A stretch of 64,000 bases of DNA. Origin: an uncultured Actinomycetota bacterium. GTDB lineage: Bacteria; Actinomycetota; Actinomycetes; Propionibacteriales; Nocardioidaceae. Positions 1-52,748 of the stretch are shown here, one piece after another (within the stretch, counting starts at the first letter, position 1; every line of letters begins with the position of its first letter). Under the pieces are notes generated by a model, which saw only the letters and a program-made list of their open reading frames with translations, had not been told where the DNA came from and ran no database searches. The DNA lies in assembly GCA_963782905.1 (NCBI GenBank), contig CAWALI010000006.1, positions 33,268 to 97,267 of the forward strand, in the 5' to 3' direction. The position numbers and the translations under genes are program-made.

Positions 1-1059
1 GACGGAGGCCTTCGAGGGGGCGCGCGACAAGGTGGCGGCGTTCATCAAGGCGCCCAGCCGCGACGAGGTGATCTTCACCAAGAACGCCACCGAGGCGCTC
101 AACCTGGTGGCCAACACCCTGGCGTGGGGCGGTGACCTCCGGGTCGGCCCGGGCGACGAGGTCGTCATCACCGAGATGGAGCACCACTCCAACATCGTCC
201 CGTGGCAGCTGCCTCACCGAGCGCACCGGCGCGACGCTGCGGTGGTTCGGGCTGACCGACGACGGCCGCCTCGACCTGTCCGACATCGACGAGCTCGATC
301 ACCGAGCACACCAAGGTCGTCGTCGCTGACCTGGGTGTCCAACATGCTCGGGCACGATCAACCCGGTCGCCGAGATCGCCGACCGCGCGCACGCAGGTCG
401 GCGCGATCGTGGTCGTCGACGCGTCGCAGGCGGCGCCCGCAGCTGCCGGTCGACGTGGCGGCCAGCGGCGCCGACTTGCTGGTCTTCACCGGCCACAAGG
501 TGGTCGGCCCGACCGGCATCGGCGTGCTCTGGGGTCGCCGGGAGGTGCTCGAGGCGCTGCCGCCGTTCCACGGGGGCGGCGAGATGATCGAGACCGTCCG
601 CATGGACGCGCTCGACGTACGCCGGGATCCCGCACAAGTTCGAGGCCGGCACGCCGCCGATCGTCGAGGCCGTCGGTCTCGGCGCCGCGGTCGACTACCT
701 CGCCCACGTCGGCATGGACGCGATCCACGCCCACGAGCAGGCGATCACGGCGTACGCGCTCGAGGGCCTGCAGACCGTGCCCGGGCTGACCGTCATGGGC
801 CCGCTCGACGCCGCCTCGCGCGGCGGCGCGATCTCCTTCGAGCTCGACGGCGTGCACCCGCACGACGTGGCCCAGGTGCTCGACTCGCGCGGCATCGCCG
901 TGCGGGCCGGCCACCACTGCGCCAAGCCCGCGCACGCCCGCTTCGGGGTGCAGAGCTCGACCCGGATGTCGTCGTACCTCTACACGACCCCGGCCGAGAT
1001 CGACGCCCTCGTCGAGGGGCTCCACTACACCCGTTCCTACTTCAAGCTGGGGGAGTACG
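1..1059 (+). pseudogene. sufS: Cysteine desulfurase SufS, 5'-truncated by the window edge and multiply frameshifted (shifts near 212, 297, 322, 399, 446 and 612); 3' end and stop uncertain
   Basis: Recognisable SufS motifs (HHSNIVPWQL, LTERTGATLRWFGLTDDGRLDL, VFTGHKVVGPTGIGVLWGRREVLEALPPFHGGGEMIETV, MDAIHAHEQAITAYALEGL, RAGHHCAKP) appear in three different frames (ORFs 32.., 132.., 409.., 714..). Confidence 0.8.
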
Positions 1060-1508: not shown

Positions 1509-1912
1509 CCAACGACAGCACCGGTGCCCCGGCCCCGACCGCCGCGCACCGCGTCGACCACGGCGACCTGCCCGACGTCCCCGCCGCCGGCGGTGGCACC
1601 AGCACCGTCACCGTCGACGACGTCACCGAGGCGATGAAGGACGTCGTCGACCCCGAGCTCGGCATCAACGTCGTCGACCTCGGCCTGGTCTACGGCGTGC
1701 ACGTCGACGAGGACCACAACGCCGTCATCGACATGACGCTCACGTCCGCGGCCTGCCCGCTGACCGACGTCATCCAGGACCAGACCAACTCCGCCCTCGA
1801 GGGCCTGGTCAACGACGTGGCGATCAACTGGGTCTGGATGCCGCCGTGGGGTCCGGACAAGATCACCGACGACGGTCGCGAGCAGCTGCGCGCCCTCGGC
1901 TTCAACGTCTGA
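1505..1912 (+). CDS. sufT: DUF59/MIP18-family Fe-S assembly protein (SufT-like)
   Basis: ATGA start/stop overlap with sufU; RBS GAGAAGGAGAAGG upstream. Sequence VVDPELGINVVDLGLVYGV...TLTSAACPLTDVI is typical of DUF59. Confidence 0.75.
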   Translation: MTNDSTGAPAPTAAHRVDHGDLPDVPAAGGGTSTVTVDDVTEAMKDVVDPELGINVVDLGLVYGVHVDEDHNAVIDMTLTSAACPLTDVIQDQTNSALEGLVNDVAINWVWMPPWGPDKITDDGREQLRALGFNV

Positions 1913-1932: not shown

Positions 1933-2316
1933 ATGAGTGACGCCGACGCGACCGTGACCGAGCCGGACCACCCGGAGGTCCGTGCCTTCTGGGACGTCGC
2001 GCGCATGCACGCCAAGATGAACGCCGCGCCGTCGTACTTCGGGCCGACGCCGCTCGAGTCGGTCCCGCCGCCGGCCTGGTCCTTCGGGTCCGACCCGGCC
2101 GAGGCGGACGCGTTCGTGGAGGCCGCGCTCGCCGACGAGGCGGGCACGACGACCGCCCCGCTCGCCGACTACGACGGCATGCTGCCCGAGGAGGGCGTGC
2201 TCTCGATCCTGTGCGACGGCGAGGGCCGCCCCCGGGCGCTCGTCGAGGTCACCTCGGTCGAGGTCTCCGGCGACGAGGTGCGCGAGCACTTCCGCGTCGT
2301 CCACCGGGGCGCCTGA
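1933..2316 (+). CDS. ASCH (PUA-like) domain protein with an N-terminal extension
   Basis: C-terminal half (ADEAGTTTAPLADYD...VLSILCDGEGRPRALVEVTSVEV...EHF) matches the ASCH pattern recalled from actinobacterial ASCH proteins. Stop overlaps the start of the next gene (TGAGCATG). Confidence 0.5.
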   Translation: MSDADATVTEPDHPEVRAFWDVARMHAKMNAAPSYFGPTPLESVPPPAWSFGSDPAEADAFVEAALADEAGTTTAPLADYDGMLPEEGVLSILCDGEGRPRALVEVTSVEVSGDEVREHFRVVHRGA

Positions 2317-2318
2317 GC

Positions 2319-2864
2319 ATGTCCCGACGCACGACGTACCTCCTCGTCGACGGCGAGAACATCGACGCCACCCTCGGCAACTCGATCCTCGGCCGTCGTC
2401 CACGACCGGAGGAGCGACCGCGCTGGGACCGGCTGCTGGAGTGGACCGAGCGGGCCTTCGACCAGGACGTCACCGGGCTCTTCTTCCTCGCCGCCGGCAC
2501 CGAGCTGCCCACCACCTTCGTCCAGGCCCTGATCGCGATCGGCTACAAGCCGGTCCCCCTCAGCGGCCCGGGCAAGGTCGTCGACATCGCCATCCAGCGC
2601 ACCGCCGAGGCGCTCGTCGACCGCGAGGCCGACGTGGTGCTGGTCAGCCACGACGGCGACTTCGTCGAGCAGGTGTCGCGCCTGTGCGACGGCAGCCGCC
2701 AGGTGGGCGTCGTGGGCTTCAACGAGTTCGTCAACGGGGCGTTCCGTGGGCTGCCCGGGCTGCGGATCATGGATCTCGAGCACGACGTCGGCGCCTTCAC
2801 CTCCGCTCTGCCGCGGGTGCGGGTCATCCCGATCGACGAGTTCGACCCGCTCGACTTCCTCTGA
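2319..2864 (+). CDS. NYN-domain (LabA-like, PIN-fold) predicted RNase
   Basis: MSRRTTYLLVDGENIDATLG...VVLVSHDGDFVEQV resembles NYN/LabA signatures recalled from family descriptions. Translationally coupled to the genes on both sides. Confidence 0.6.
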   Translation: MSRRTTYLLVDGENIDATLGNSILGRRPRPEERPRWDRLLEWTERAFDQDVTGLFFLAAGTELPTTFVQALIAIGYKPVPLSGPGKVVDIAIQRTAEALVDREADVVLVSHDGDFVEQVSRLCDGSRQVGVVGFNEFVNGAFRGLPGLRIMDLEHDVGAFTSALPRVRVIPIDEFDPLDFL

Positions 2865-2867
2865 GCC

Positions 2868-3470
2868 GTGCCCGTCGTCCTGGTCCCACCGGCGCGCCTC
2901 GAGCGCTGGGTCGACAACTTCGTCGGCCGTCACGGCGCGACGTCGTACGCCGTCGTCGACGGTGCCCTGCGCGGGGACGCCGACGACGGCTCGTCGTTCG
3001 TCGCCCGGTTGCCGCTCGCCGCGTCGTACGACGGAGTCCCCGACGTCACCGGCCTGCTCGCCGCGGCCACGTGCCCCGCACCGTGGGGGGTGCTGCTGGT
3101 GCGCAAGGGAGGCTTCGCGGTGGCCCGGCTCGAGGGCGCTCGCCTGGTCGAGCACAAGATCGGCCAGCGCCACGTGCAGGGCCGCACCAAGGCCGGCGGG
3201 CAGAGCCAGCAGCGCTTCGCTCGCCGGCGCGACAACCAGGCGCGGCAGGCCTACGAGGCGGCCGCCGACCACGCCGCCCGCATCCTGCGCCCGGGGCCGC
3301 TGGTGACCGGGGGAGACCGGACCGCGGTCGACGAGGTGCTCGACGACCCCCGGCTGACCGGCATGCGGGTCGTCGAGCCCTGGCTGGCGGTGCCCGATCC
3401 CCGGCGGGCGGTCCTCGACCGGGCCGTCCTCGATGCCCAGTCCTTCTCCGTGGACGTCACCAACGCCTGA
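2868..3470 (+). CDS. Vms1/ANKZF1/VLRF1-like release-factor-fold protein (putative peptidyl-tRNA hydrolase)
   Basis: GTG start 4 nt after the NYN stop. Loop TKAGGQSQQRFARRRDNQ contains a GGQ-like catalytic Gln motif, interpreted here from recall as VLRF1/eRF1-like. About 200 aa. Confidence 0.5.
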   Translation: MPVVLVPPARLERWVDNFVGRHGATSYAVVDGALRGDADDGSSFVARLPLAASYDGVPDVTGLLAAATCPAPWGVLLVRKGGFAVARLEGARLVEHKIGQRHVQGRTKAGGQSQQRFARRRDNQARQAYEAAADHAARILRPGPLVTGGDRTAVDEVLDDPRLTGMRVVEPWLAVPDPRRAVLDRAVLDAQSFSVDVTNA

Positions 3471-3526: not shown

Positions 3527-5404
3527 GTGAGGGGCTGCCACACCGGGGGACGGATGGAGCATCTGGTGGTGGGGAGAGCGTCACCGACAGGCCGCGAGGT
3601 GGTGCTCCGCGTGCTGGGCGGCGACGCGCCCGTCGCCGTGGTGACGTGGGCGCTGACCGCTCCCGCGGCACTCGTCTGGGCCCGCCGCATCGACGTCGAC
3701 CCGATGAGCGAGCAGGGCGCCTTCCTGCCGATCGGCGCGGGGGCCGTGCTGCTGGTGCTCGTCGGCGTCCTCGCGTGGCAGCCGTTCGCCACCCGGTGGA
3801 TCAGCGCGGTGGCGGCCGGCCTGTTTGCGGCCTGGGTCGCCTTCGCCCTCCAGGTGGGACTCATCGGTACGCCGTTCGGGTACGCCGGCCTCCAGAGCGA
3901 CAACGGCCGGATGACCGCGGCCGTCGTGCGCTACTCGGCGACCGCCTGGTCCTCCGACACCTTCGTGGAGGATGTCCCGTCCGAGTATCCGCCGCTGTTC
4001 CCCTGGTCGGTCGGCCGGCTCTCGCTCCTGACCGACACGCCGGCGTGGCGCCTGGTGGCGCCGGCCGAGGTCCTCCTCCTGTCGTTCGGCGTGGTCGTCG
4101 GCTTCGTGATGTGGAGCAGGCTGGTCCAGCCCCCGGTCGCGCTCGCCTGCTCGGCCGTGTCGCTGCTGGTGTACGGCGTGCCCTTCAAGCCGTTCACCAC
4201 CGTCGCCCTCGTCGTGGTCGTGCCGTGGCTGATCGCGACCTTCACCCACCCTCCTCGCGGCCGTCTGCACTGGCTCCCGGCGGGTGTCATCGGGGGTCTG
4301 GTCGTGCTGACCTACCACGGGTGGATCACGTTCGCCTTCATCGGCGTGCTCGCCGTCGTCGTGGGTGGGTTCCGGCGCGCTCCCGACCGCCGCGCCCATC
4401 TTCGGCACGTGGTCCTCACGGTGCTCGTCATGTCGCTGGTCGCCTCGCCCTACCTGCTGCCGTACGGATGGGCGTTGCTCACCACGGAGGGTGGGCAAGC
4501 CCTCAGCGACCTCGCCCTGACCGCCGAGATCACCGACACCGGCTTCCCCTTCCTCGAGGTCAGCATCCTGGGCGCGCTGCAGCTGGTCGGGCTGGGCGGC
4601 CTGGTGTGGCTGCGTGGCACGACCTTCTGGGCCTGGCCGATGCTCCAGCTCGTCCTGGGCGCGTACGCGTTCTGGCTCGTCTTCGGGCTCCGGTTCGTGG
4701 TCACCGGCCACACGACGATGTTCTACTACGTCGCCCGCCTCAACGGTGAGCTCCTCGCCACGGCCGGAGTGCTCACCCTCGCGTACGTCGGACCGGTCCT
4801 GCTGGAGCGAGGGATACAGCCGCCCCGGGGCTTCGGCGCGGCGGTCGTCGCTGTGTCGCTGGTGTGGGTGGGCTACGGCTACTGGCAGGAGTGGCGACCG
4901 CGCCCCGCCATGCTCGGGACCCAGGGCGACTTCTCGGTGATGGCGCACCTGGAGCCGTCGCCGACCTGTACGTGGCCGCGGTACAAGCCGGACATCGCGT
5001 GGGTCGGCTGCCTTCCCGCCGCGCAGATCCGGGCGGAGGTCGAGTCGGTCCGCGGCGCGGGGGACCGCCCGCACACCCTGTCCGGGGACGAGCGGCTGTT
5101 CTCGTTCCTGCCCTGGCGGGCCTACATGGGGGTGGACCGGAACGCCGCCGGCACGCTGACCCGGTACGACGACCGGCTCGCGGAGCTGGTGCGCCTCGCC
5201 GGCATCCGGGATCCGGCGGAGCTGGCTCGGGCGACCGAGGACACGGAGTTCGGGCCCATCGACGTCTTCGTGATCGGACGCGTCGACGAGGGCCGCCGGT
5301 GGAACTTCCAGACCGCCGAGTTCCGGCCCCGCCAGTTCGCGTCCCCGGCCTGGAAGGTCGTCGACCGCCCGGAGTGGCCGGTGGTGGTGATCATCCGACG
5401 CTGA
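3527..5404 (+). CDS. Polytopic membrane protein, GT-C-type glycosyltransferase-like (AftA-like arabinofuranosyltransferase N and C domains); start codon uncertain (possibly ATG at 3554)
   Basis: About 12 predicted TM segments followed by a soluble C-terminal domain (RLFSFLPWRAYMGVDRNAAGTL...FVIGRVDEGRRWNF). The overlapping antisense 662-aa ORF is judged spurious. Confidence 0.4.
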   Translation: MRGCHTGGRMEHLVVGRASPTGREVVLRVLGGDAPVAVVTWALTAPAALVWARRIDVDPMSEQGAFLPIGAGAVLLVLVGVLAWQPFATRWISAVAAGLFAAWVAFALQVGLIGTPFGYAGLQSDNGRMTAAVVRYSATAWSSDTFVEDVPSEYPPLFPWSVGRLSLLTDTPAWRLVAPAEVLLLSFGVVVGFVMWSRLVQPPVALACSAVSLLVYGVPFKPFTTVALVVVVPWLIATFTHPPRGRLHWLPAGVIGGLVVLTYHGWITFAFIGVLAVVVGGFRRAPDRRAHLRHVVLTVLVMSLVASPYLLPYGWALLTTEGGQALSDLALTAEITDTGFPFLEVSILGALQLVGLGGLVWLRGTTFWAWPMLQLVLGAYAFWLVFGLRFVVTGHTTMFYYVARLNGELLATAGVLTLAYVGPVLLERGIQPPRGFGAAVVAVSLVWVGYGYWQEWRPRPAMLGTQGDFSVMAHLEPSPTCTWPRYKPDIAWVGCLPAAQIRAEVESVRGAGDRPHTLSGDERLFSFLPWRAYMGVDRNAAGTLTRYDDRLAELVRLAGIRDPAELARATEDTEFGPIDVFVIGRVDEGRRWNFQTAEFRPRQFASPAWKVVDRPEWPVVVIIRR

Positions 5405-8970: not shown

Positions 8971-9909
8971 TCAGAGCTGACTGGCGGAGAACGTGTCGCA
9001 GGCCTCGAGCGTGCCCTGCTCGTAACCGGTGGTGAACCAGCGCACGCGCTGCTCCGACGAGCCGTGGGTCCAGCCCTCGGGGTCGACCCGCTGGCCCGAC
9101 TTCTGCTGGATGCGGTCGTCGCCGACCGTCTTGGCCGAGTCGATGGCCTCGTCGATGTCGCCCTGGTCGAGGTCGGCGAGGATCCCGTCGCCGTCACTGG
9201 CGTCGCGGGTCCACATCCCGGCGTAGCAGTCGGCCTGGAGCTCGAGGCGCACCGCGTCGGACTCGGGACCCTGCTGGGTGCGGACCCTGCCCATGGTGCC
9301 GAGCATGTTCTGGATGTGGTGGCCGTACTCGTGGCCCAGGACGTAGGGCTCGACGAAGTCGCCGCCCTGGCCGCCGAGCTGGCCCTCCAGCACGTCGGAG
9401 AAGAAGGTGGTGTCGAGGTAGACCTGCTGGTCGGTGGGGCAGTAGAACGGGCCGACCTGCGAGGTGGCCTGGCCGCAGCCGGTGTTCACGCCGCCGCTGA
9501 AGGTGACGATCTGGGCCGGGGTGAAGTCGGCGCCGCCCTGCTCGGGGAGGGTCGTGGCCCAGTACTGCTCGAGGGAGTACGCCACGGCCTTGCGGGCACA
9601 GTCGACGTCCTTGTTGGCGTCGGCGCCGGTCTTGCAGTTCGCGTAGCGGTCGCTGTCCTGGTCGAGGCCGGAGGGGTTGCCGCCCTGCCCGGACGGGTCG
9701 ATACCGGTGCCGGTGCCGCCCCCACCGCCGACGCACTGGGTCAGCACGAGGAACAGGATGATCACCAGCACGCCGCCGATGCCGCCGCCGGCCCTGGTGC
9801 CGCCCGGCATCGGGATCCGCATGCCGCCCCCGCCGCCGCCGCCCCCTCCGCCGCGGCCGGCATCGCCGACGCGACCCCTGCTGATGTCAGCCTTCGGGTT
9901 GAACCGCAT
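8971..9909 (-). CDS. YpfJ-family neutral zinc metallopeptidase with Gly-rich N-terminus and a TM anchor
   Basis: HEYGHH zinc motif, poly-Gly tract and one TM helix near the N-terminus; length about 312 aa. Confidence 0.7.
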   Translation of the reverse strand: MRFNPKADISRGRVGDAGRGGGGGGGGGGMRIPMPGGTRAGGGIGGVLVIILFLVLTQCVGGGGGTGTGIDPSGQGGNPSGLDQDSDRYANCKTGADANKDVDCARKAVAYSLEQYWATTLPEQGGADFTPAQIVTFSGGVNTGCGQATSQVGPFYCPTDQQVYLDTTFFSDVLEGQLGGQGGDFVEPYVLGHEYGHHIQNMLGTMGRVRTQQGPESDAVRLELQADCYAGMWTRDASDGDGILADLDQGDIDEAIDSAKTVGDDRIQQKSGQRVDPEGWTHGSSEQRVRWFTTGYEQGTLEACDTFSASQL

Positions 9910-10025: not shown

Positions 10026-11624
<1,599 letters not shown>

Positions 11625-52674: not shown

Positions 52675-52748
52675 GCGGACGTGGTGTAGTTGCAGCACGC
52701 TTCCCTTCCAGGGAAATGGTCGAGGTTCAAATCCTCGCGTCCGCTCCA
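52675..52748 (+). tRNA. tRNA-Gly (anticodon TCC)
   Basis: Acceptor GCGGACG/CGTCCGC, T-arm CGAGG-TTCAAAT-CCTCG, anticodon loop CTTCCAG (U33, A37), 3' T-CCA encoded, 4-nt variable loop. Confidence 0.6.

What the first reader, a model, noticed from the sequence alone, without database searches (positions are those of the whole stretch)
1933..3470. Translationally coupled ASCH - NYN RNase - Vms1/VLRF1-like operon: candidate RNA/ribosome quality-control module
Three genes run with 2-4 nt junctions, TGAGCATG then TGAGCCGTG. The first is an ASCH (PUA-like, RNA-binding) protein. The second is a NYN/LabA PIN-fold nuclease. The third is a 200-aa protein whose TKAGGQSQQRFARRRDNQ loop looks like the catalytic Gln loop of eRF1-fold peptidyl-tRNA hydrolases of the Vms1/ANKZF1/VLRF1 type. 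An RNA binder, an RNase and a release-factor-like hydrolase in one operon suggest a stalled-ribosome or aberrant-tRNA processing system. It could also act as a defence or abortive-infection module. As far as I know it is uncharacterised experimentally in Actinobacteria. It sits directly downstream of the SUF operon, so its co-transcription status matters.
Basis: partly seen in the sequence, partly recalled or inferred. Interest (0 to 1): 0.72.

Follow-up and report, generated by a model that had tools for sequence, protein, structure and literature searches.

The report
Vms1-like release factor beside SUF operon
The three tightly packed genes are real and the third is a clear member of the already-named acVLRF1 (Vms1-like) release-factor family, but related genomes show the trio is a lineage-specific juxtaposition behind the iron-sulfur (SUF) operon, not a conserved RNA or ribosome quality-control module.

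Summary
Three + strand genes (1933-2316, 2319-2864, 2868-3470) are separated by 2 and 3 nt and lie 20 nt after sufT.

- **Gene 3** is an unambiguous acVLRF1 (Pfam PF18859 150 bits; NCBIfam NF041024 232 bits). It has the GGQSQ loop, and an AF2 model (pLDDT 96) matches eRF1, aRF1, Pelota and Vms1. The family was defined in 2019, and NCBI already names homologues 75-89% identical to gene 3 this way.
- **Gene 2** is an NYN nuclease with its acidic residues intact. It most likely belongs to the actinobacterial Rv0207c-type group, whose usual neighbour is trmB.
- **Gene 1** is only a remnant of an ASCH gene. It has no Pfam hit, has lost the motif lysine and lacks about 50 internal residues.

The trio is not conserved. 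Among 80 Nocardioidaceae species, acVLRF1 follows sufT in all 70 loci where a same-strand sufT was detected within the 6 kb upstream. NYN is present in 11, adjacent to acVLRF1 in 7, and the contiguous trio occurs in 6. No NYN or ASCH was found at 80 distant acVLRF1 loci. The sufT-acVLRF1 interval varies from 2 to 5479 nt.

The best reading is a stand-alone, untested ribosome-rescue hydrolase, probably read through from the SUF operon, with unrelated passenger genes. Interest is low to moderate.

The parts
1577..1912 (+). sufT-type gene (FeS_assembly_P/DUF59), last gene of the SUF operon. The listed ORF from 1439 is an over-extension.
   Evidence: Pfam PF01883 64 bits. tblastn with N. daphniae SufT covers residues 1-111 at 86% identity over 1577-1909.
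1933..2316 (+). Gene 1: short, degenerate derivative of a YhfF-type ASCH gene (127 aa).
   Evidence: No Pfam or NCBIfam hit. A profile of its homologues hits PDB 1T62 (DUF984) at E 1e-5 and 3S9X (ASCH domain) at E 0.015. The AF2 model has pLDDT 74, and its top Foldseek matches are 1T62 and 3S9X with TM about 0.5. Alignment with long-form orthologues shows loss of the Lys of GxKTAT and of about 50 internal residues. The long forms score 70-84 bits on Pfam ASCH.
2319..2864 (+). Gene 2: NYN (PIN-like) nuclease, probably of the actinobacterial NYN.2/Rv0207c-type group (181 aa).
   Evidence: Pfam PF01936 30.6 bits against a cutoff of 24.2. D11, G12, E13, N14, D16, D89, D105, S110, D112 and D114 are invariant in 33 homologues. 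Some sources name homologues 'putative heme uptake system protein'. Janibacter orthologues (67% identity) follow trmB, as described for NYN.2 in PMC5499597.
2868..3470 (+). Gene 3: acVLRF1, a single-domain Vms1-like eRF1-fold predicted peptidyl-tRNA hydrolase (200 aa). GGQSQ loop at residues 110-114, arginines at R116 and R119-121.
   Evidence: Pfam PF18859 150.4 bits, E 4e-44. NCBIfam NF041024 231.9 bits against a cutoff of 125. G110, G111, S113, Q114, R116 and R119-121 are near-invariant in 53 diverse homologues. AF2 pLDDT 96, pTM 0.89. Foldseek against PDB finds eRF1 and aRF1 at E 4e-6 and Vms1 (6R84_R) at E 2e-4.
8971..9909 (-). Zn-metallopeptidase gene (PF04228). It is part of the conserved synteny block downstream of acVLRF1 and is context only.
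   Evidence: Pfam 230 bits. tblastn 66% identity to the N. daphniae neighbour. The same gene lies downstream of acVLRF1 in L086, L088, L089, L122, L161 and L170.
10026..11624 (+). ABC-F type ATPase gene (ABC_tran, ABC_tran_Xtn, ABC_tran). It marks the far end of the conserved synteny block and is context only.
   Evidence: Pfam. 85% identity to the N. daphniae neighbour over 532 aa. It recurs downstream in L086, L088, L089, L122, L161 and L170.

Best explanation
The region is the 3' tail of the SUF (Fe-S assembly) operon of a Nocardioides-like actinobacterium. Its conserved resident is acVLRF1. This is a 200-aa protein made of an eRF1-middle-domain (RNase H-like) fold plus a short N-terminal extension, with no stop-codon-reading domain.

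By homology with eRF1 and Vms1, acVLRF1 most likely enters the A site or peptidyl-transferase centre of a stalled ribosome or 50S-peptidyl-tRNA complex. There it would place the Gln of its long GGQSQ loop, anchored by the Arg-rich helix (R116, R119-121), and release the nascent chain without reading a codon. That makes it a stand-alone rescue factor.

The two genes before it are passengers in a variable interval. One is a decayed ASCH-derived gene. The other is an Rv0207c-type NYN RNase whose usual neighbour elsewhere is the tRNA m7G methyltransferase gene trmB.

In this genome the three genes are probably co-transcribed, most likely by read-through from the suf genes, and gene starts lie 2-3 nt after the preceding stops. 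They do not form a conserved functional module.

Shown here: gene structure, family membership, fold, motif conservation and neighbourhood statistics. Inferred: catalytic activity, substrate, and co-transcription with suf.
For: - **Family and fold of gene 3:**
- **Prior definition:** PMC6514570 defines acVLRF-1, gives its GGxSQ motif and the loss of the codon domain, and calls bacterial VLRF-1 proteins stand-alone.
- **SUF linkage in Nocardioidaceae:** in 80 species loci, acVLRF1 has sufT upstream on the same strand in 70. Most of the other 10 are contigs cut short upstream. The gap ranges from 2 to 5479 nt and is under 150 nt in 18 loci.
- **Variable interval:** it holds dozens of unrelated ORF clusters, mostly singletons.
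- **Rarity of the trio:** ASCH-type genes occur in 24 of 80 loci, NYN in 11, NYN adjacent to acVLRF1 in 7, and the contiguous trio in 6.
- **SUF linkage in distant lineages:** a Mycobacteriales MAG (L086, 37% identity), L088, and 12 of the 60 distant metagenomic loci that have at least 500 nt of upstream sequence.
- **No partner elsewhere:** no NYN or ASCH at those distant loci. The nearest upstream genes there are SufT (8), thymidine phosphorylase (7), OYE-type oxidoreductase (3) and singletons.
- **NYN contexts elsewhere:** after trmB in Janibacter, alone in Brachybacterium, Agrococcus and a Nocardioidaceae MAG.
- **Junctions:** no terminator-like structure at either end of the trio.
Against: - No experiment on any acVLRF1 was found in the searched literature, so hydrolase activity is inferred. 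For eukaryotic Vms1/ANKZF1 it is debated whether the activity is peptidyl-tRNA hydrolysis or an RNase activity (PMC6514570; from my own knowledge, the proposed RNase reaction is cleavage of the tRNA CCA end).
- NYN has settled in the sufT-acVLRF1 interval in several Nocardioides lineages. It is directly coupled to acVLRF1 in N. daphniae with a 4-nt overlap, and it lies between sufT and acVLRF1, with two genes between it and acVLRF1, in L174. A local functional link is therefore not excluded.
- The short ASCH form co-occurs exactly with NYN and is still under purifying selection (dN/dS about 0.45). That is unexplained if both are mere passengers.
- My NYN profile was built from close homologues and could miss very divergent NYN genes at distant loci. 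The Pfam census partly covers this, for the nearest upstream genes only.
- Only the 80 best of more than 590 genomic acVLRF1 loci could be retrieved.
Confidence: 0.72

Rival explanations
1. The ASCH-like protein, the NYN RNase and acVLRF1 form one RNA or ribosome quality-control module. An RNA binder recruits the complex, the RNase cuts the problem mRNA or tRNA, and acVLRF1 releases the peptide.
For: Junctions of 2-3 nt in the window and a 4-nt NYN/acVLRF1 overlap in N. daphniae. The NYN catalytic residues are intact. The NYN.2 group is linked to the tRNA gene trmB elsewhere. The short ASCH form co-occurs with NYN in all 11 loci. All three genes are under purifying selection.
Against: The trio is contiguous in only 6 of 80 related species. 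Insertions, including opposite-strand genes, split ASCH from NYN or NYN from acVLRF1 in L007, L015, L021, L025, L034 and L174. Most acVLRF1 genes (69 of 80 close loci, 80 of 80 distant loci) have no NYN nearby. NYN orthologues mostly lie elsewhere. Gene 1 has lost the ASCH motif lysine and a third of the domain. The pattern fits one insertion event in one subclade.
Confidence: 0.12
2. acVLRF1 is a functional extension of the SUF regulon. It would be co-expressed with Fe-S assembly genes under iron or oxidative stress to rescue ribosomes that stall when mRNA is oxidised or Fe-S-dependent tRNA/rRNA modification fails. This is compatible with the best explanation and adds a regulatory claim.
For: sufT precedes acVLRF1 on the same strand in 70 of 80 Nocardioidaceae loci, with gaps of 2-124 nt in 18. 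The same holds in a Mycobacteriales MAG and in L088, which has a 5-nt gap, and in 12 of 60 distant metagenomic loci, 11 of them within 200 nt. No terminator lies between sufT and the trio in the window. The 2019 family paper does not report this linkage.
Against: Other acVLRF1 clades are not SUF-linked: a Propionibacteriaceae MAG and 48 of 60 distant loci. The whole block from SUF to Zn-peptidase and ABC-F is syntenic across these genomes, so adjacency may be inherited gene order. The interval tolerates kilobases of unrelated and opposite-strand genes. No expression data were available.
Confidence: 0.2
3. The trio is an anti-phage defence or abortive-infection module, or a toxin-antitoxin-like element.
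For: NYN/PIN-like nucleases and release-factor-like proteins occur in some defence systems (general knowledge). Gene 2 has a marginal PADLOC match to a generic NYN model (E 0.009, 13 bits).
Against: Genes 1 and 3 have no PADLOC hit and gene 2 has only the marginal match. The viral-contig scan found no acVLRF1 relative. GC content is native. The genes sit in a stable core-genome position behind an essential housekeeping operon in dozens of species. No mobile-element genes were recognised in the conserved flanks.
Confidence: 0.02

Closest known systems
acVLRF-1 family (Actinobacteria/Chloroflexi Vms1-like release factor; Pfam PF18859, NCBIfam NF041024; Burroughs & Aravind 2019, PMC6514570)
   Same: Full-length HMM matches far above the cutoffs, the GGxSQ loop (GGQSQ), the Arg-rich helix, no stop-codon domain, a short N-terminal extension and an eRF1-M/RNase H-like fold.
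   Different: Nothing in the protein itself differs. The context described here, at the 3' end of the SUF operon, is not mentioned in the defining paper, which calls bacterial VLRF-1 proteins stand-alone.
Yeast Vms1 / human ANKZF1 (eukaryotic RQC release factor)
   Same: The catalytic VLRF1 fold with a long Gln-bearing loop. The model aligns to Vms1 on the 60S subunit (6R84_R, E 2e-4, TMq 0.47).
   Different: At 200 aa, the protein has room only for the catalytic fold and a short N-terminal extension, so the Rei1-type zinc finger, ankyrin repeats, VIM motif and Cdc48 coupling described for the eukaryotic proteins in PMC6514570 are absent. Sequence identity in the structural alignment is only 8-11%. 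The loop motif is GGxSQ rather than GxuQ.
NYN.2 group of PIN-like nucleases (M. tuberculosis Rv0207c type; Matelska et al. 2017, PMC5499597)
   Same: The NYN domain with conserved acidic residues and very high sequence conservation across Actinobacteria. Orthologues at 67% identity lie directly after trmB.
   Different: Here the gene lies between an ASCH remnant and acVLRF1 behind sufT, with no trmB or MmpL gene nearby and no trmB in the whole 64-kb window. Orthology to Rv0207c itself could not be tested directly because no Mtb sequence was available.
YhfF-type ASCH domain proteins (Pfam PF04266; PDB 1T62, 3S9X)
   Same: A remote profile match and the best structural matches are to these structures. 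Long-form orthologues in the same genomic position are bona fide ASCH proteins.
   Different: Gene 1 fails the Pfam model. It lacks the Lys of the GxKTAT motif and about 50 residues carrying the EGEGD..W..H..FF segment.
ArfB (YaeJ) and other single-protein bacterial rescue factors
   Same: The predicted job is the same: codon-independent release of peptidyl-tRNA on stalled ribosomes by one small protein with a catalytic Gln loop (PMC6514570).
   Different: The fold is unrelated. ArfB uses the bacterial RF-PH domain, while acVLRF1 uses the archaeo-eukaryotic eRF1 fold.

Membership tests
acVLRF1 (PF18859 / NF041024) | Full-length match to the family HMMs above the curated cutoffs | tested here: met
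   PF18859 150.4 bits (cutoff 27.1). NF041024 231.9 bits (cutoff 125), covering residues 3-198.
acVLRF1 (PF18859 / NF041024) | GGxSQ catalytic-loop motif with the conserved Gln (PMC6514570) | tested here: met
   G110-G111-Q112-S113-Q114. G110, G111, S113 and Q114 are at least 90% conserved in 53 diverse homologues.
acVLRF1 (PF18859 / NF041024) | Conserved arginines at the start of the helix after the loop | tested here: met
   R116 is invariant and R119-R121 are near-invariant. The helix spans residues 112-139 in the model.
acVLRF1 (PF18859 / NF041024) | eRF1 middle-domain (RNase H-like) fold, no stop-codon-binding domain, short N-terminal extension | tested here: met
   The 200-aa AF2 model has pLDDT 96. 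The top PDB matches are eRF1, aRF1, Pelota, Vms1 and Balon. Residues 1-66 form a small extra alpha/beta unit.
acVLRF1 (PF18859 / NF041024) | Peptidyl-tRNA hydrolase (or tRNA-cleaving) activity on stalled ribosomes | not testable with these tools
   No experimental paper on the family was found.
NYN domain (PF01936), NYN.2 / Rv0207c-type group | Pfam NYN match above the gathering score | tested here: met
   30.6 bits against 24.2, residues 6-135.
NYN domain (PF01936), NYN.2 / Rv0207c-type group | Conserved acidic metal-binding residues of the PIN-like site | tested here: met
   D11, E13, D16, D89, D105, D112 and D114 are invariant in 33 homologues.
NYN domain (PF01936), NYN.2 / Rv0207c-type group | Gene located downstream of trmB (and next to an MmpL gene in mycobacteria) | tested here: not met
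   There is no trmB in the 64-kb window. The feature is met in Janibacter orthologues. It is a typical neighbourhood, not an absolute criterion.
ASCH domain (PF04266) | Match to the Pfam ASCH model | tested here: not met
   No family matched even at E<=10. Long-form orthologues score 70-84 bits.
ASCH domain (PF04266) | Conserved Lys-containing motif (GxKTAT in the YhfF type) and the complete beta-barrel | tested here: not met
   The window has AGTTTA with no Lys and lacks about 50 residues that the long forms have.
ASCH domain (PF04266) | Remote sequence or structure similarity to solved ASCH/DUF984 proteins | tested here: met
   Profile against PDB: 1T62 E 1e-5, 3S9X E 0.015. Foldseek: 1T62 E 1e-4, TM 0.50-0.54. 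The model is only moderately confident (pLDDT 74).
   The trio is contiguous in 6 of 80 Nocardioidaceae species. NYN is adjacent to acVLRF1 in 7 of 80. There is none in 80 distant loci.
Known anti-phage defence systems (PADLOC) | Match of any component to a defence-system model; presence on phages | tested here: not met
   Only a 13-bit generic NYN match. The viral-contig scan found no acVLRF1 relative.

The most novel reading that the evidence does not exclude
In a Nocardioides subclade, an Rv0207c-type NYN RNase and a remodelled ASCH fragment have been recruited next to acVLRF1 on the SUF transcript. Together they would form a stress-coupled rescue pathway. acVLRF1 would free or clip peptidyl-tRNA on stalled ribosomes, as Vms1/ANKZF1 does. 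The NYN enzyme would process the resulting tRNA or the faulty mRNA. Expression would be tied to Fe-S or oxidative stress through SufR.
Probability: 0.1. Interest if true: 0.7.

Novelty: new member of a known kind. Interest (0 to 1): 0.3.

Why it matters
acVLRF1 is the bacterial cousin of the eukaryotic RQC release factor Vms1/ANKZF1, and no member of the family has been tested experimentally. A 200-aa, single-domain version would be a simple system for asking how a Vms1-type loop works on a bacterial ribosome, and whether it hydrolyses the ester bond or cuts the tRNA.

The useful new point from this work is not the trio. It is the recurrent placement of acVLRF1 at the 3' end of the SUF operon in two actinobacterial orders. 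That gives a concrete and cheap hypothesis to test: co-expression with Fe-S stress genes. The ASCH-NYN-VLRF1 module idea itself should be set aside unless biochemical evidence appears.

Tried and rejected
- **Full-text search for 'acVLRF1':** no papers. The spelling in the literature is acVLRF-1/VLRF-1, and only the 2019 definition paper is relevant.
- **Genome-collection scan with a diverse alignment:** the 80 loci kept were all Nocardioidaceae, so distant lineages had to be reached another way. I used exact-protein look-ups and a metagenome scan ranked on a distant member.
- **Cluster look-ups for taxonomy of distant members:** most are unnamed metagenomic proteins. Only a Propionibacteriaceae MAG and a Mycobacteriales MAG could be placed.
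- **Sigma-70 promoter and intrinsic-terminator scans:** nothing found. These patterns are poorly suited to actinobacteria, so this is weak evidence.
- **Folding of the two flanking intergenic stretches:** no structure beyond shuffles.
- **Rfam and tRNA scans:** only an unrelated tRNA-Gly at 52675-52748.
- **Horizontal acquisition:** rejected on composition.
- **Defence role:** rejected.
- **dN/dS by NG86:** only a rough guide, because GC3 is extreme and dS is compressed.
- **Direct orthology of gene 2 to M. tuberculosis Rv0207c:** not testable, because no collection with that sequence was available.
Full report
**Observation**

The three ORFs exist as described.

| Gene | Coordinates | Start codon | Length |
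|---|---|---|---|
| 1 | 1933-2316 | ATG | 127 aa |
| 2 | 2319-2864 | ATG | 181 aa |
| 3 | 2868-3470 | GTG | 200 aa |

- The junctions read TGAgcATG and TGAgccGTG, which are 2 and 3 nt.
- The trio starts 20 nt after a SufT-type gene. tblastn places the true SufT at 1577-1912.
- Best hits for all three proteins are Nocardioides species.
- No terminator-like site or unusual hairpin flanks the trio, and composition is native.
- Co-transcription with the suf genes is therefore plausible but untested.

**Gene 3**

- It is an unambiguous acVLRF1: Pfam PF18859 at 150 bits and NCBIfam NF041024 at 232 bits against a cutoff of 125.
- Burroughs & Aravind defined the family in 2019 (PMC6514570). They describe a Vms1-like eRF1-superfamily clade of Actinobacteria and Chloroflexi that lost the stop-codon domain, carries a GGxSQ loop, and occurs as a stand-alone gene in bacteria.
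- The window protein has GGQSQ at residues 110-114. G110, G111, S113, Q114, R116 and R119-121 are at least 90% conserved among 53 diverse homologues.
- An AlphaFold2 model is very confident (pLDDT 96, pTM 0.89).
- Its best PDB matches are eRF1 and aRF1 (E 4e-6), Pelota, Vms1 on the 60S subunit (6R84_R, E 2e-4) and Balon.
NCBI already names homologues 75-89% identical to gene 3 'acVLRF1 family peptidyl-tRNA hydrolase'.
- I found no experimental study of the family.

**Gene 2**

- It passes the Pfam NYN model (30.6 bits against 24.2).
- It keeps the invariant acidic residues D11, E13, D16, D89, D105, D112 and D114, so an active PIN-like nuclease is likely.
- Its family is very conserved across actinobacterial families, at 66-92% identity.
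- Some sources name members 'putative heme uptake system protein'.
- Matelska et al. (PMC5499597) describe exactly such a group, NYN.2. It is typified by M. tuberculosis Rv0207c, has unknown function, and is usually encoded downstream of trmB. I infer this assignment; I could not test it directly.
- Contexts of orthologues vary. In Janibacter (67% identity) the gene follows trmB with no acVLRF1 nearby. In Brachybacterium, Agrococcus and a Nocardioidaceae MAG it stands alone.

**Gene 1**

- It has no Pfam or NCBIfam hit, even at E<=10.
- A profile of its homologues reaches the DUF984/ASCH structures 1T62 (E 1e-5) and 3S9X (E 0.015).
- A moderate AF2 model (pLDDT 74) has the same two structures as its top structural matches, with TM about 0.5.
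- Alignment with genes at the same position in other Nocardioidaceae shows two forms:
  - A long form of 175-183 aa carries GxKTAT and an EGEGD..W..H..FF segment. It scores 70-84 bits on Pfam ASCH.
  - A short form, to which the window gene belongs, has lost the lysine and about 50 residues.
- 'ASCH' is therefore true by descent, but the domain is degenerate.
- The short form is still under purifying selection (dN/dS about 0.45, a rough estimate).

**Neighbourhood**

A genome-collection scan returned 80 species-level loci, all Nocardioidaceae. Profile searches of six-frame ORFs gave these counts:

| Feature | Loci (of 80) |
|---|---|
| sufT upstream of acVLRF1, same strand | 70 (most of the other 10 are contigs truncated upstream) |
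| sufT-acVLRF1 gap under 150 nt | 18 |
| ASCH-type gene present | 24 |
| NYN present | 11 |
| NYN directly adjacent to acVLRF1 | 7 |
| Contiguous ASCH-NYN-acVLRF1 trio | 6 |

- The sufT-acVLRF1 gap ranges from 2 to 5479 nt.
- The interval contains dozens of unrelated ORF clusters, mostly singletons, some on the opposite strand.
- In L007, L015, L021, L025 and L034 other genes split the trio.
- In L174 an opposite-strand DUF3140 gene lies between NYN and acVLRF1.
- In N. daphniae the order is sufT-NYN-acVLRF1, without ASCH.
- The short ASCH form occurs only in the NYN-bearing loci. This fits one rearrangement in one subclade.

**Distant lineages**

- A Mycobacteriales MAG (37% identity) has SUF, NUDIX, VWA and then acVLRF1.
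- L088 has sufU-sufT-acVLRF1 with a 5-nt gap.
- A Propionibacteriaceae MAG is not SUF-linked.
- A metagenome scan ranked on the distant member gave 80 further loci. Among the 60 with at least 500 nt upstream, 12 have sufT upstream, 11 of them within 200 nt.
- None of these 80 loci has a detectable NYN, ASCH or trmB gene.
- A Pfam census of the nearest upstream ORFs found FeS_assembly_P (8), thymidine phosphorylase (7), OYE-type oxidoreductase (3) and singletons.
- Downstream, a Zn-peptidase gene on the opposite strand and an ABC-F gene recur, as they do in the window at 8971-9909 and 10026-11624. This indicates a conserved syntenic block.
- The viral-contig scan with the acVLRF1 alignment found no relative, and no component has a significant match to a PADLOC defence model.

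**Interpretation**

The only recurrent association is SUF followed by acVLRF1. NYN and the ASCH remnant are lineage-specific occupants of a variable interval.

I therefore read gene 3 as a stand-alone, codon-independent release or rescue factor. This is inferred from homology with eRF1 and Vms1. In this genome it is probably expressed by read-through from the suf operon.

I read genes 1 and 2 as functionally separate. Gene 2 is a conserved but uncharacterised RNase that is linked elsewhere to tRNA methylation genes.

A local functional link in this subclade cannot be excluded, and I put it at about 0.1. The SUF linkage may reflect co-regulation (about 0.2) or simply inherited gene order.

**Novelty and interest**

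The family, its motif and its predicted role are published and annotated, so the gene is another member of a known, experimentally untested kind. The SUF-operon linkage is a modest new observation that can be tested directly. Overall interest is 0.3.

Noticed in passing
window 2-1052 (sufS) and 1063-1490 (sufU): Both essential SUF genes are split over two reading frames. sufS runs in frame 2 up to about 604 and then in frame 3. sufU runs in frame 1 up to 1212 and then in frame 3 from 1227. The first sufS segment is only 58% identical to the N. daphniae protein, against 92% for the second, which suggests further garbling. These are most likely indel errors in the assembly rather than pseudogenes. 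The N. daphniae record CP038462 (L090) shows similar fragmentation.
   Followed up: partly
window 1933-2316; L016, L019, L040, L042, L046, L048, L057, L060 (long form); L006, L007, L010, L014, L015, L024, L025, L026, L034, L035 (short form): The ASCH-type gene between sufT and acVLRF1 exists in a full-length form and in a short form that lacks the motif lysine and about 50 residues. The short form is found only where the NYN gene is present, yet it stays conserved (61-86% identity, dN/dS about 0.45). Why a truncated ASCH is retained together with NYN is unexplained.
   Followed up: partly
L006-L085, interval between sufT and acVLRF1: The interval is a hotspot of gene-content variation, from 2 to 5479 nt. 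It holds about 95 ORF clusters, most seen in a single species, on both strands. The flanks (SUF upstream; Zn-peptidase and ABC-F downstream) stay syntenic.
   Followed up: partly
L096, L111, L129, L133, L141 and others (metagenome loci): In another acVLRF1 clade the gene immediately upstream, about 32 nt away on the same strand, is a thymidine/pyrimidine-nucleoside phosphorylase (7 loci). This is a second lineage-specific neighbourhood.
   Followed up: no
window 2763-2861 (C-terminus of gene 2): The NYN protein ends in a nearly invariant tail, LPRVRVIPIDEFDPLDFL, outside the Pfam NYN match (residues 6-135). It may be a partner-binding motif. M. tuberculosis Rv0207c was reported to bind MmpL3 (PMC6656915).
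   Followed up: no
window 3527-5404: The gene after acVLRF1 is a 625-aa membrane protein with weak matches to arabinofuranosyltransferase AftA N- and C-terminal domains (72 and 27 bits). The start codon is uncertain. It is not present at this position in the other loci examined.
   Followed up: no
window 10026-11624: An ABC-F (ribosome-associated ATPase type) gene lies 6.5 kb downstream of acVLRF1 and recurs near acVLRF1 in distant loci (L086, L088, L122, L161, L170). This may be synteny only, but both proteins are predicted ribosome binders.
   Followed up: no
window 52675-52748: tRNA-Gly(TCC) is the only Rfam or ARAGORN hit in the 64-kb window.
   Followed up: no
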